A DNA stretch of 64,000 nucleotides from Eledone cirrhosa (Eukaryota), in NCBI GenBank assembly GCA_964016885.1, contig OZ024758.1, forward strand, positions 19,406,001-19,470,000, given 5' to 3'. Positions 14,681-53,275 of this stretch are shown here, one piece after another. Position numbers and translations under genes: made by a program. The stretch's first letter is position 1. Each line of letters opens with the position of its first letter. The notes beneath the pieces were generated by a model. The model saw nothing but the letters and a program-made list of their open reading frames with translations. It was not told where the DNA came from and did no database searches.

Positions 14681-16812
14681 ACCATGGAGACCCTATTAAT
14701 AATTACTAATTATGAAAATTTAATTAACAAAAAAAGTGAATTATTCTTAAACTGCCTTCATGTCTACATTCCTAGTCTCGCAAAAAGTCAGGAAAAAACA
14801 CTAAATAAACACGTTCTAATTGTTGACATCTCTTATCATCTGTGTACCTAAAACGATTATAAAACTTTAATAATTTTTTTTTTTTTTATTCATTTATGAT
14901 ATGATTAATGTTAGATTAAAGGGTCCTATATAGGTATATAAACATATTATTTGTTAACATGATCTCTTGATGAATGTGCATATCATTTGATTGTTTAGAT
15001 ATATTTCATTTAGATTGGGATTCTTGTATTTTTTTTTCTTATATATGGTTTATATGCTTAACAGTTATAATGAACTGTAAATCATTCATGCATTGATGTT
15101 TTTGTATATTTATTCATTTGGAGTATGTTTTACCTTTCAGGAAGTTTTATTTATATATTTTTATTTATATATATTTATGGTATATGCGTCACATACGATA
15201 CTAGTAGACAAACCTTTTTTTTCCACTTAACTTGATGTAAAACTTCAATTATAACATTACTAAGAATGATTGTACTTTATATTTATTATATGTATATAGA
15301 TTACTAATATGTGGGATACTCTCTCTATCTATATATTTGAACAAATCTGTAAATCTACTATAATAACATGCTTCTAGTTACATTTATAAGTACTTTAGAT
15401 ACTTTAATGACGTTCTAGCGTTATCATCGTTAAATATTTTCTAAATATTTTCTAAATTTTCTAAATAATATAACGATTATTATTTAATTTAATTTAATTA
15501 AAATCGGGTTGCTTTCGGGTCAATGAAATCCTTAGGTTTTCTCTTTCTCATGTTTGCAGACACATTATACTACTATATAACTTGTTTTAAACAAATTTTT
15601 ATTGTATTTTTAAACTATATAGCACTATATATTTGGCACTTTTAAGATCGCAAACACTTCACTTTTTTATTTTGAATCTGGTTCTTATCCTATGATTCAT
15701 GAAGTTTGACTTGTATATTTATAGTATGTATTACATGATCCTATTATAATAATTGATCTAAAACCTTAATTTTTAAAAATATTATCAGTAACTTATTTAT
15801 TGCATAGTATTATGTTATACGTAACTGATACGTATCATCTTAATATTTAGACAATATAATCTTTGTTTATATTTAGACAAATCCAAATATGTAATTTAAT
15901 AATAAACTTTTTTTAAGTTTAATTATAAGGCCTTTAGAAGCTTTAAGGCATTCTAATTGTTAATCTTAATTTTTAAAATTATAACTGTAATTATTTTATA
16001 AATTATATGATTTGAATTATTTTCAATATAATATAAATAATTAAATATAATATAATAACATGTAATAAGAATTACCTTCGTGAGGATGAAAATATTATGT
16101 CTTCCTTCTTATGTTTGCAAATAGTTTAAATATGATAGTATACTTTAATATTAATACAGATATTTATAAACTGTTATAGCCTGAAATATTATACACTTTG
16201 ATTAATTCATTACTCTGAACTAACTTAAATGATTTGAAAGTTAACGGTCAACCAGTTACGTTTGGATAGTATATATAACTAATTAACTAAGGACAGGAAA
16301 TTAATCTTTATATAATTACACCCAGTTATATTTAAGATTAAGATTTAGATCGATGAATACTTCTATATAATTCAGTAATTCAAAGATTCGAGTTTACTCT
16401 TTCGCAAAGCTATGCCCAAATGTATGGTTCTGTATAGATATATATAATTCATCCCTCTCTATAAAAAGGATTCCACTTTGCCTCTCTCTCCTTGATCAAT
16501 TATCTTTTGCTCTCTATACTTCTACTAGCTATATTATACCCCATTGAATAGAGTAGTCTATACTTGAGTCCTTAAGGGATCATACGTGGCTAGCGCGTTT
16601 CGTGGATGATCTTTTGTCCGGGTTCCTAAAGGTCGACTGATGGGATGAGGAAGCGTTCCTTAAATCGGCCGTCCGCCATACACACATATGATGTGACCTC
16701 CTGTGTGTGTGTATAACATTTAATATTTGTCAAAATAAAGAAACCTATTAGTGAAACATATATGGTAATTGTAAGAAACAATAGAAATGGAAACAATAAA
16801 TCTATAAATTAC

Positions 16813-16952
16813 CTGAGTGTAATGTCCAACCATTTGTGTCGTCGTGTGATTATATTTAAATTGTTTTTCCTCATTAAACCATGCATTTACAGCGGATATC
16901 CACCCACTTTTGTGGCTTGAAACCATAATATTCTGACCAATACCGACATACC
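16813..16952 (-). CDS. CAP/CRISP gene exon 4 (GYVGIGQNIMVSSHKSGWISAVNAWFNEEKQFKYNHTTTQMVGHYTQ)
   Basis: GQNI, W-x2-E and GHYTQ CAP signatures; tacag acceptor, CAG|GTAATT donor, 140 nt phase 1/0. Confidence 0.95.
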
Positions 16953-17009
16953 CTGTATAAAATATGAAATTGTCGCCAATGAACAATGATACCGAACAAT
17001 GATACCGAA

Positions 17010-17790
17010 GGGTGGTTTTCTGCTAATATGTGTAATGTGCATATTGATATTATACGCAAATATATATGCATGTAGATATGATACAACAACAAAAATCGTA
17101 ATTGCCAATATACACACAAATTGAACAAAGACTGCGTTACACTGTCTTAATCAGTAACGTAATCCATGATACGTTAAACAAAATAACGATATTATATATA
17201 AACAGCATCCGCGGAAAATTAGTGACGGAAATATATGAATGTTTATTTAACCGATCGCTAACCGGAAGTGTTTACATTTGAACATTTTAAAGAAGTGAAT
17301 CTTAAAATAACCAACACGATTATTCATATCAAATCAAGAATAACGAAATTTAGTAGATTAATTATGTACTATTCATTCATTATTTATTCAAAGTAATCCA
17401 ACTTATTTTACAAGCGGGATAAACAAATATATTCTGGGCGCTCAACCGCGCTCCTTACATAATTATAGTTTACACTACCAGAAAAAAAACACACTTTGGG
17501 ATGTTTTTCTCCTAGCATGAGCAGTGTGCATATTGATATTATAGGCAATATAAACATTATGATACAACGATGCAAAACCGTTATAATATAGCTTCCGTTA
17601 TATCATAACCGGAAATATTGATATTAGAAAATTTTAAAAGAAGTGAATTTTAAAGTAAGCAATTATATATAAGAATATTCATATTAAATCAACAGCTATG
17701 AAATATAGTAGATAAATTATGTAATATTCATTTATTATTTATTCAAAGTAATCCGACTTATTTTACTAACGGGATAAACAAATATATGCA
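17010..17790. repeat. Dispersed repeat: 17010-17460 matches 57663-58110, with a degenerate tandem partial copy at 17505-17790
   Basis: Shared blocks GGGTGGTTTTCTGCTA, CGCTAACCGGAAGTG, ATTCAAAGTAATCC. Confidence 0.88.
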
Positions 17791-17815: not shown

Positions 17816-18215
17816 TGGTGGATTGGCAGTATCGGTGGAGGGCCGGACGCCATGCTTTCCAGCATAGTTACGTCACTTTACGATCTGAGTTCAAATCCCG
17901 TCGAGGTTGACTTTGCCTTTCATCCTTACGGGATCGATAAAATAAAGTACCAGTAATGCACAGGGTAATTGCTGGCCTTGTGCTTACAGTAGACACAATT
18001 ATTATATTATGATACGATTGGCGGTGGATTGTCAGTATCGGTAGAGGGTCGGACGCCATGCTTTGACGCAAAGTGTTACATCCCTTTCCATTCTGAATTC
18101 AAATCCCGCCGAGGTTAACTTGGCCTTTAATCCTTACGGGGTCGATAAAATAAAGTACCACTAATCTACTGGGTAATTGCTGGCCTTGTGCCAAAAGTAG
18201 ATACAGTTATATTAT
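17816..18215 (+). mobile_element. Two head-to-tail family A SINEs (17816-18010, 18019-18215)
   Basis: Both align to 8822-9012; the second begins in the ATT tail of the first. Confidence 0.9.
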
Positions 18216-50230: not shown

Positions 50231-51893
50231 GAGCATATATTGTTATAATAATAGGCTGGTTTATTATAGTGAGTGCAAATTTCTGTAGAATATATATATA
50301 TATATATAGAAGAGATTCCTCACAACCAAACCTGTCAATGACAAGTATGTTATTTATATTTCCGCCACGTGGCTTTCGTTTAGATTATTGACTTTGGAGG
50401 TTGCAATCCATTCACAGTCGGGTGTGATCCCTCCTGGGTCGGCGGGAGTTCATTACCCAGTGCTGCACTTTGCCTTGTGTGTGGTTCCATAATTCATCAA
50501 AGCCGGAACACAATTCATATTCAACTAACTGCAAGCTTGAAAGATTAGTCTCTCGCTAGTAACACATAACGGTATTCTGAATATAAACACAGGATGTCGT
50601 AGTGTAGGTATGAAAGGTATGGGAGGCAACTCGCGTCATAAAGGGCGGATTATTTTGATATCCAACGGGATGCTAGAGGCGACTCTTTTGTTTGATTCGA
50701 AGCCCTCAGCGATCAACCTCACCTCCCCCCTGGGGCTAGGTCGATTCAGCGGCGCCCAGCATACACGATTTGCTACCATAGTTATATATATATATATATA
50801 TGTATATATTAAAATATATATATATATATATGTATATATTAAAATACACACACATTTATATATATATAAGTGTGTGTCATACATATAATTAATACAATGG
50901 TTCAATGGCAAGTTAATAAATTAGCCAGAATAAAATCAAGGGAGTGCAAATATAAAAAGAAATTTTAAATAAATAAATAAAAAAATCACTGTACTTCCTA
51001 TATGTGCCCTTACCACGGTTTCAAATCCCAAACGAATAGATAACCCAGGCGAAAGAAGTTATCGTCAGAAGGCATTTCTCTCTCGGAAAATATTAAATTC
51101 CCGAGTTAAAAATTACAAATGCCGCCATTCCAAACTGCCTCGGAATGAGAGCAAATGAATGATAAAGCAGTTTTGTCATGGTACCGTGTGCAAAGTCAAA
51201 AGTACGGTCGACAAGTCAACCCTGTACTGCTAAAAATAGCAGCCATTCAGACGACTAAAGGTTTCTCTACCATTGAGGAGAATAATAGTATATATATGTA
51301 TGTGTGTGTGTGTCTCTGTGTCCGTGTTTGTGTTTGTGGCTGTGTGAGTAGGCGGTTGTCCATATATATGTGTATTTGTACGATGAATCCAGGTTAATGC
51401 ATTTAAATACATAATATATTAATATTGATGATAATGAAAAGGATATGAGAGATGATGCTGACAATGATGATGATATTGAAGATGAAGGATTAAGATGAAG
51501 TTTACGATACAGTTTATACCACAGAACCAGAGTTGCAGGCACATTTAACGAGAAAAGATTGGAAATATAAGATCACATGCAGATAGGGAAGGATGAATCA
51601 TGTAATTTCTATAATTTAACTTCATTAATTATATTTACCTGTATCATATGCTTCACTCTCAACGTGATAATAAGATGTTAAGTCTAGGTTATCTCAAATA
51701 TAATATATACAAATAACTGTTTAAATGGACCGGAGAAAAAATATTACATGAATTTAAAAACAAAAGTCTGTATAAATTTAGATGAAGGCACGCATGTGAA
51801 CATTATACTTTTGTGTATATCTACACATATATTCCCACACACATACACACACACTCACACACACACACACACACACACATATATGCATATACA

Positions 51894-51926
<33 letters not shown>

Positions 51927-51942
51927 GTATATATATACATAA

Positions 51943-51977
<35 letters not shown>

Positions 51978-52008
51978 TATATATATATATATATATATAA
52001 CTAAATAA

Positions 52009-52097
<89 letters not shown>

Positions 52098-52113
52098 TAT
52101 ATATATATATATA

Positions 52114-52660
52114 TTGGAATAAATGCTCTGAAATAGCGATATATATATGTGAATATAGACATAGAATATTCGAAAATATTCTGTATGTTTATAATAAACA
52201 TTTTGAAGACCTAATCGCTATAGAATAGAATACGTCACGTATTACAATTAGATTCTTGTAATACGTGACGTATTCTATTCTATAGCGATTAGGTCTTCAA
52301 AATGTTTATTATAAACATACAGAATATTTTCGAATATTCTATGTCGATATTCATATATATCGCTATTTCAGAGCATTTATTCCAATTTCTAATTTCTGCC
52401 GGACCGGCAACCGCTCTTTCAAACCAGTTCCTGTACACAGCTAAGTATTCTATAAGTCTCTAGCTGTGTCATTCTCCATAAAAGCACTGGATATGTAGTC
52501 CTGAAGATTTCTAATAAGAATGAAACGCGTAGATTACTTCCCTTGCTTTTATCGAGAATCTAATTGTAATACGTGACGTATTCTATTCTATAGCGATTAG
52601 GTCTTCAAAATGTTTATTATAAACATACAGAATATTTTCGAATATTCTATGTCTATATTC

Positions 52661-52665
<5 letters not shown>
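52114..52665 (+). mobile_element. Young pLTR/retrozyme-like element: inverted partial unit + 308-nt unit + partial direct repeat, in (TA)n
   Basis: 52256-52357 repeated almost exactly from 52564; 52114-52255 is the reverse complement of the unit junction; hammerhead inside. Confidence 0.88.
52495..52537 (+). ncRNA. Intact minimal type I hammerhead motif
   Basis: gtagtc-CTGAAGA-tttctaataagaat-GAAA-cgcgt-A-gattac; palindromic ACGCGT stem III, GUA triplet. Confidence 0.88.
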
Positions 52666-52747
<82 letters not shown>

Positions 52748-52938
52748 TATATATATATAAATAAATATATATATATATATAAATATATAAATAAATATAT
52801 ATATATATATATAATATATATATATATATTTATATATATATAAATAAATATATAAATAAATATATATATATATAATATATATATATGTTTATATATATAT
52901 ACATAAATATATAAATAAATATATATATATATATTTTA

Positions 52939-52970
<32 letters not shown>

Positions 52971-53004
52971 ATAAATAAATATATATATATATATATATAA
53001 ATAA

Positions 53005-53039
<35 letters not shown>

Positions 53040-53214
53040 CATAAATATATATATATATAAATAAATAAATATATATATATAAATAAATAAATATATATAA
53101 ATAAATAAATTTATATATATAAATAAATAAATATATATATATAAATAAATAAATATATATATATATATATATAAATAAATATATATATAAATAAATATAT
53201 ATATATATAAATAA

Positions 53215-53275
<61 letters not shown>

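What the first reader, a model, noticed from the sequence alone, without database searches (positions are those of the whole stretch)
52114..52665. 308-nt hammerhead-containing unit in partial tandem plus inverted copy: candidate active retrozyme or circular RNA
Seen: near-identical repeats with a 308-nt period, one intact hammerhead (52495-52537) per unit, no coding capacity, and an inverted copy that includes the unit junction sequence (ATTACAATTAGATTCT versus AGAATCTAATTGTAAT). Near-identity implies a recent insertion. Inference: greater-than-unit-length copying fits reverse transcription of a circular or tandem RNA by a Penelope RT.
Basis: partly seen in the sequence, partly recalled or inferred. 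Interest (0 to 1): 0.75.

Follow-up and report, generated by a model that had tools for sequence, protein, structure and literature searches.

The report
Two-armed Penelope-pasted hammerhead retrozyme, short copy
This is a short, likely inactive copy of a young 310-base repeat with a hammerhead-ribozyme motif that occurs about 18,000 times in this animal genome as back-to-back arrays with two fixed outer ends, a layout that suggests a Penelope-type jumping-gene enzyme copied a likely circular RNA round and round into TA repeats.

Summary
The repeat, the inverted copy and the hammerhead motif are real. They form one 548-bp insertion (52114-52661) of a non-coding family whose true unit is 310 nt; 308 comes from a private deletion. 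The genome holds 18,403 exact hammerhead-pattern hits. Insertions sit in (TA)n as two divergent tandem arms. One arm ends at unit position 164, the other near 130, which leaves the 34-nt 'tail' of Penelope-like elements (55 of 59 loci picked by the long end). No sampled locus is joined to an RT ORF. Units of both arms usually share one haplotype. Variants shared by all units spare the ribozyme fold (0 of 11 break it), while single-unit variants do not (12 of 19). Best reading: a non-LTR retrozyme whose self-cut, likely circular monomer is reverse-transcribed from two start sites by a Penelope-type enzyme acting in trans. Some templates were multimers. This copy has only one ribozyme and cannot release a monomer, and the 'unit junction' argument is wrong. 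Cleavage, circular RNA and the helper element are not shown. The scan already found this family on other DNA of this genome.

The parts
52114..52256 (-). Inverted arm, unit positions 24-164 (numbered from the predicted cleavage site); ends at the 'long' fixed end CCAA|TA
   Evidence: the same junction occurs 1,041 times in the genome
52114..52149 (-). Penelope-type tail (unit positions 131-164, 34 nt, here with 2 extra nt), present at this outer end only
   Evidence: tail concept from PMC11167929 and PMC8557442
52256..52661 (+). Forward arm, unit positions 33-310 then 1-130; ends at the 'short' fixed end TTCA|TA
   Evidence: strict short-end junction 693 times in the genome
52256..52256 (.). 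Head-to-head inner junction of the two 5'-truncated arms, 1-nt overlap
52495..52537 (+). Type I hammerhead motif: stem I 52495-52500/52532-52537, core 52501-52507, stem II 52508-52521, GAAA 52522-52525, palindromic stem III, predicted cut at 52531/52532
   Evidence: cleavage not tested
52472..52558 (+). Extended stem closing the ribozyme (52472-52486 with 52544-52558); one pair broken in this copy by G>C at 52477
51879..52113 (.). (TA)n target microsatellite, left flank
52662..53262 (.). (TA)n target microsatellite, right flank

Best explanation
The locus is a short two-armed insertion of a young, non-coding 310-nt hammerhead repeat family (a non-LTR retrozyme), likely pasted into a TA repeat by a Penelope-type RT/endonuclease working in trans, likely from a self-cut RNA monomer that would be closed into a circle. 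Shown: the two divergent arms, fixed outer ends 34 nt apart, scattered inner ends, TA targets, one haplotype per locus in most loci, and the absence of a linked ORF in the sample. Inferred: tandem arrays are transcribed; paired hammerheads cut out 310-nt monomers, probably as dimers through the palindromic stem III; monomers are ligated; a PLE protein nicks both strands of (TA)n and starts cDNA at unit positions 164 and about 130; each RT runs round the template for 0.3 to about 20 turns; the two cDNA ends join by short homology. A minority of insertions were copied from multi-unit RNA, and a few long arms later grew by DNA duplication. The window copy has only one ribozyme, so it cannot release a monomer itself.
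For: Scale: 18,403 exact hammerhead-pattern hits, reversed control 0. Ends: long junction 1,041, strict short junction 693, an internal TA-compatible control junction 0. On contig C1, 42 of 100 listed long ends pair divergently with one of 72 listed short ends, with 0 long-long and 0 short-short pairs. Of 59 distinct stretches picked by the long end, 55 have an inverted arm ending at the short site, 3 are single-armed and 1 hits a gap. In the 17 loci taken from the first hammerhead hits, 13 are two-armed, 12 of them with both fixed ends. Two autonomous PLE families of this genome show the same long/short/inverted/TA layout, and two internal RT start sites bound the tail in vitro (PMC11167929). 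Template: 115 of 130 arms exceed one unit. Inner ends show no pile-up at the cut site (4 of 142 within 5 nt, 4.6 expected). There are 23 majority haplotypes among loci with 3 or more units, with sample-private variants in all 14-20 units of both arms at L184, L201, L227, L232 and L238. 60 single-unit variants stand against 11 entries at intermediate frequency. Selection on the ribozyme: 0 of 11 all-unit substitutions break the core or stems, against 12 of 19 single-unit ones (Fisher p 6e-4). Stem II has two double changes between families A and B. Arm lengths are correlated (rho 0.44, n 65).
Against: No cleavage, RNA or circle was observed. At L221 and L203 a variant confined to the outer units recurs in step in both arms, so those templates were multi-unit (2 of 64 loci). 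L194 and L230 are mixed in one arm. The three long lopsided arrays (27, 45 and 19 units in one arm) repeat variants in blocks, which shows DNA-level duplication can lengthen arms. In the anole PLE the ribozyme is not needed for insertion in vitro (PMC11167929), and 8 of 9 predicted Xenopus retrozyme dimers did not cleave (10.64898/2026.07.22.740005). None of four PLE families inspected shares pLTR sequence with the unit, so the helper is unidentified. Single-unit variants include assembly errors, and polarity was set against one reference unit.
Confidence: 0.75

Rival explanations
1. Same PLE-driven insertion, but the template is mostly a long uncut linear multimer transcribed from existing arrays. 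Arrays are homogenised and lengthened as DNA (satellite-like), and circles, if any, are by-products.
For: In-step mosaics in both arms at L221 and L203. Block-repeated variants in L183, L184 and L207. Unprocessed RNA is the main substrate for the anole PLE in vitro. The ribozyme here looks weak as a monomer.
Against: 5' truncation shortens arrays at every round (median arm about 1.0 kb). New variants fixed in 14-20 units of both arms need a one-unit bottleneck followed by amplification. Intermediate-frequency variants, expected under gradual homogenisation, are rare. Single-unit variants are not matched in the other arm. This model gives no reason for selection on the catalytic core.
Confidence: 0.17
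2. The unit is the ordinary pLTR of an autonomous Penelope-like element, and these are 5'-truncated copies of it.
For: Same tail, inversion, TA target and hammerhead as PLE ends. Only 59 of at least 1,041 long ends were inspected.
Against: Reading inward from the long end always gives more 310-nt units or the inverted arm, never an ORF (0 of 59). Arms run up to 45 units. The unit is collinear over its whole length with ORF-less relatives of about 317 nt (66% identical) and 320 nt.
Confidence: 0.04
3. Linear monomers with repeated end-to-end template jumping by the RT, or a DNA mini-circle intermediate, build the arrays.
For: Either would give a one-unit bottleneck. Haplotypes with a 1-nt insertion next to the cut site exist.
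Against: Junctions at the cut site are exact and identical within each of the 20 dispersed loci checked, and inner ends do not pile up there. The 1-nt insertions are fixed haplotypes that fit stem I. A DNA circle does not explain the two RT start sites without a further RNA step.
Confidence: 0.04

Closest known systems
Metazoan non-LTR retrozymes (coral, mussel, axolotl; Cervera and de la Pena 2020, PMC7229834: passages, Results part 1 of 3 and Discussion read; Li, Clavereau and Pollet 2026, 10.64898/2026.07.22.740005: parts 1-3 of 5 read)
   Same: Non-coding tandem repeats of about 300 nt, low GC (35%), one type I hammerhead per unit, thousands of copies, structured monomer (z about -5 as a circle), coexisting PLEs.
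   Different: The text I read describes head-to-tail tandems and proposes PLE mobilisation and circle-templated RT from co-occurrence and pLTR similarity. It does not describe two divergent arms with a fixed tail, one haplotype per insertion, or selection on the ribozyme among founders. Here no RNA data exist and no pLTR homologue was found.
Endonuclease-positive Penelope-like elements (Frangieh 2024, PMC11167929: parts 1-2 of 4 read; Craig 2021, PMC8557442, and Arkhipova 2013, PMC3846280: passages read)
   Same: Inverted 5'-truncated copy, 30-40-nt tail at one end only, two internal RT start sites, (TA)n targets, hammerhead with small palindromic helix III (PMC4209133, passages).
   Different: No RT or GIY-YIG ORF. 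The whole element is one 310-nt unit repeated many times per arm rather than a partial tandem of a 3-4 kb element.
Non-autonomous PLE derivatives such as Chlamydomonas MRC1 (PMC8557442, one passage)
   Same: Non-coding, PLE-dependent, multicopy head-to-tail insertions.
   Different: Those resemble their helper at the 3' end, and Chlamys elements mostly lack hammerheads. This unit has one and matched none of four helpers inspected.

Membership tests
Metazoan non-LTR retrozyme | Short (150-450 nt) tandem repeat, low GC, dispersed in many copies | tested here: met
   310-nt unit, 35% GC, 18,403 motif hits, 526 full units in 65 loci; the window copy itself has only 1.3 forward units
Metazoan non-LTR retrozyme | Type I hammerhead motif in each unit | tested here: met
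   Core and stems present; all-unit variants spare them; Rfam score below gathering
Metazoan non-LTR retrozyme | No protein coding, non-autonomous | tested here: met
   Longest ATG ORF 30 aa; 0 of 59 loci joined to a PLE ORF
Metazoan non-LTR retrozyme | At least two consecutive hammerheads in the copy (criterion for an active element in Li et al. 2026) | tested here: not met
   The window copy has one; most other loci of the family meet it
Metazoan non-LTR retrozyme | Self-cleavage of the RNA | not testable with these tools
   Only indirect support from the pattern of variants
Metazoan non-LTR retrozyme | Expression as linear and circular monomer RNA | not testable with these tools
   No raw RNA reads were available to lay
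PLE-type insertion | Inverted 5'-truncated copy and a 30-40-nt tail on one end only | tested here: met
   Ends at 164 and about 130; 55 of 59 loci; no long-long or short-short pairs
PLE-type insertion | Microsatellite (TA)n target | tested here: met
   target duplication cannot be read inside (TA)n
Autonomous PLE | RT plus GIY-YIG ORF between pLTRs | tested here: not met
Derivative of a known PLE pLTR | Sequence similarity to the pLTR of an autonomous PLE in the same genome | tested here: inconclusive
   No match in four families inspected; more PLE families exist in this genome

The most novel reading that the evidence does not exclude
Each insertion is a one-step record of a PLE RT dimer rolling round a single ribozyme-made RNA circle from two start sites, and only circles with a working hammerhead found new insertions. 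The family would then be a viroid-like RNA lineage evolving under selection, possibly with A-to-I editing as a mutation source, that is archived in the genome by a helper it shares no sequence with.
Probability: 0.5. Interest if true: 0.72.

Novelty: new member of a known kind. Interest (0 to 1): 0.5.

Why it matters
That PLEs move animal retrozymes, and that circular RNA is the template, is proposed in the papers read but rests on co-occurrence and pLTR similarity. The role of the hammerhead in PLE biology is called unclear. This family gives countable genomic footprints for all three points: the PLE tail on more than a thousand insertions, a one-unit bottleneck per insertion, and selection on the ribozyme among founders. 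It also gives exact predicted RT start sites (164 and about 130) and a 310-nt substrate for an in vitro test. The window copy itself is an unremarkable short member.

Tried and rejected
Rfam at gathering: no hit. The miRNA hits at E-value threshold are hairpin artefacts of the inverted arms. The first DNA search gave only 6 matches and badly undercounted the family; pattern counts corrected this. An apparent pile-up of inner ends at the cut site was an artefact of the query starting there and vanished with a rotated query. The 1-nt insertions beside the cut site were considered as ligation scars and rejected as evidence, because they are fixed haplotypes that fit stem I. Sequencing runs: no RNA holder listed. 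Two runs of unrecorded kind gave one 340-letter contig (310 + 30) matching the commonest haplotype, which a collapsed DNA array would also give; laying the same runs on a PLE ORF did not settle their nature. Helper search: two Neptune-like families with long open frames (775 and 777 aa), an older Neptune-like family and a Hydra-like family (clade labels from my recall of motifs, not from a tree) showed no similarity to the unit. A relative next to a PLE at L290 is a separate neighbouring insertion. No consensus Pol III A or B box in the unit. The Hydra-like PLE at window 1636-4136 has no match to the unit. Literature searches for this architecture in retrozymes or cephalopods found no paper describing it; the library lacks most subscription journals, and supplements of the 2020 paper and of the 2026 preprint were not seen.

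Full report
Observation. The window comes from a 3.0-Gb animal genome rich in TA microsatellites (it looks octopus-like to me, an untested impression). Between two (TA)n runs lies a 548-bp insert, 52114-52661. It has a direct repeat at spacing 308 (104 of 105 identical), an inverted arm, and one hammerhead motif at 52495-52537 with a predicted cut at 52531/52532. Numbering a 310-nt unit from that cut, the inverted arm covers positions 24-164 and the forward arm 33-310 plus 1-130. The arms meet head to head at 52256 with 1 nt of overlap. The copy has four private changes, including the 2-nt deletion that gives 308.

The family. A degenerate 26-nt hammerhead pattern has 18,403 exact hits, reversed control 0, about 0.2% of the genome. 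Full units are 310 nt in 441 of 526 cases, the rest 299-311. The unit is 35% GC, non-coding and folds better than shuffles on both strands (z -5.0 and -4.8). Older ORF-less relatives exist: about 317 nt, 66% identical along the whole unit, and 320 nt with a U3-A8 core.

Insertion anatomy. Insertions are two tandem arms pointing away from each other. One outer end is at position 164 followed by TA: 1,041 exact junctions. The other is at about 130, blurred to 126-139 by TA homology: 693 strict junctions. A control junction at another TA-compatible position has 0 hits. Among listed hits on contig C1, 42 of 100 long ends pair divergently with a short end, with no long-long or short-short pairs. 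I fetched 60 consecutive long-end sites and dropped one overlap. Of 59, 55 have an inverted arm ending at the short site, 3 are single-armed and 1 meets a gap. None is joined to a PLE ORF; PLE hits lie beyond the TA flanks. In 17 loci chosen by hammerhead hits, 13 are two-armed and 12 of these have both fixed ends. The 34 nt between the ends match the 30-40-nt PLE tail (passages in PMC8557442 and PMC3846280), which in vitro is the stretch between two internal RT start sites (PMC11167929). Two autonomous PLE families here show the same layout with longer tails, roughly 60 and 135 nt by eye. Inner ends are spread round the unit (chi-square p 0.07), with 0-6 nt overlap in 44 of 71 junctions and no excess at the cut site, 4 of 142 against 4.6 expected.

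What the template was. 115 of 130 arms exceed one unit and the two arm lengths correlate (rho 0.44). Within a locus the units of both arms usually share one haplotype, while 23 majority haplotypes occur among loci with three or more units. Variants seen at only one sampled locus are present in all 14-20 units at L184, L201, L227, L232 and L238. In 51 loci (499 units) there are 26 distinct all-unit variants, 60 single-unit variants and 11 intermediate entries from 5 loci. This star-like pattern fits amplification from one unit at insertion. Results against a pure monomer model: at L221 and L203 outer-unit variants recur in step in both arms, so those templates held several units (2 of 64 loci); L194 and L230 are mixed in one arm; and the three long lopsided arrays repeat variants in blocks, as DNA duplication would.

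The ribozyme. Core nucleotides are present. Stem II is 4 bp plus U-U (A-U in a common haplotype), and stem III is a palindrome of the kind proposed to need dimers (PMC4209133 passages). All-unit substitutions in the ribozyme and its closing stem fall at free positions or keep pairs (0 of 11 break; two 1-nt insertions in stem I were left out of the count), whereas 12 of 19 single-unit changes break the core or a pair (two indels in stems left out; Fisher p 6e-4). So founders of insertions appear selected for the fold. Stem II shows two double changes between families A and B, each a single event. A>G is over-represented among all-unit substitutions (8 of 23 against 6 of 50, p 0.03 uncorrected), a weak hint of RNA editing. 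With one hammerhead and a 137-bp fold-back, the window copy cannot excise a monomer.

Mechanism. Shown: layout, ends, targets, haplotype structure, no linked ORF in the sample. Inferred: transcription, dimer cleavage, ligation to a circle, two-strand nicking and twin priming by a PLE protein, rolling RT, and joining of the two cDNA ends. The helper is unknown: four PLE families inspected, two with many long open frames, share no pLTR sequence with the unit.

Comparison and novelty. It works like, and by the testable sequence criteria is, a metazoan non-LTR retrozyme (PMC7229834; 10.64898/2026.07.22.740005) inserted with PLE geometry. Those papers propose PLE mobilisation and circle-templated RT; the parts I read do not show them. 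Six searches found no description of tailed two-armed retrozyme insertions; supplements were not seen. Earlier notes of this scan describe the same 310-nt family and similar families. I read them after the main analysis; they are not independent support.

Verdict. A real but short and likely inert copy of a new retrozyme family whose genome-wide footprints make an open mechanistic question testable. New member of a known kind, interest 0.5.

Noticed in passing
window 1636-4136 (-): Broken Penelope-like element (RT and GIY-YIG-like frames split by stops or frameshifts), Hydra-like by my recall of motifs; no match to the 310-nt unit.
   Followed up: partly
window 7854, 27609, 29754, 37040, 38297, 41847 (+); 24997, 27416, 37434 (-): Further hammerhead-like motifs of other repeat families, some in inverted pairs.
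   Followed up: no
L174-L182, L244-L267, L271-L290: Neptune-like PLE families carry a hammerhead variant with U3-A8 instead of C3-G8; one has a 409-aa upstream ORF with no Pfam match overlapping the 775-aa RT/GIY-YIG ORF.
   Followed up: partly
L058:5860-6225, L085-L113, L175:6000-6330, L290:220-770: Older ORF-less relatives of the unit (about 317 and 320 nt) with the same inverted-arm and tail layout and a conserved motif inside the tail, a candidate RT-binding signal.
   Followed up: partly
G000:C14 near 25.04-25.06 Mb and 25.30-25.32 Mb (L013-L016): Clusters of unit arrays nested in each other and repeated as multi-kb segmental blocks.
   Followed up: no
inner junctions of 71 arm pairs, including window 52256: 11 of 71 junctions are nearly symmetric (arm starts within 10 nt; p 0.008), perhaps joining at RNA hairpins or by fold-back.
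   Followed up: partly
window 16723-17022 (-): Probable exon of a CAP (cysteine-rich secretory) family gene, weak Pfam hit E 0.007.
   Followed up: no
window 17817-18210: 208-nt tandem of a SINE-like repeat (the label is my recall).
   Followed up: no
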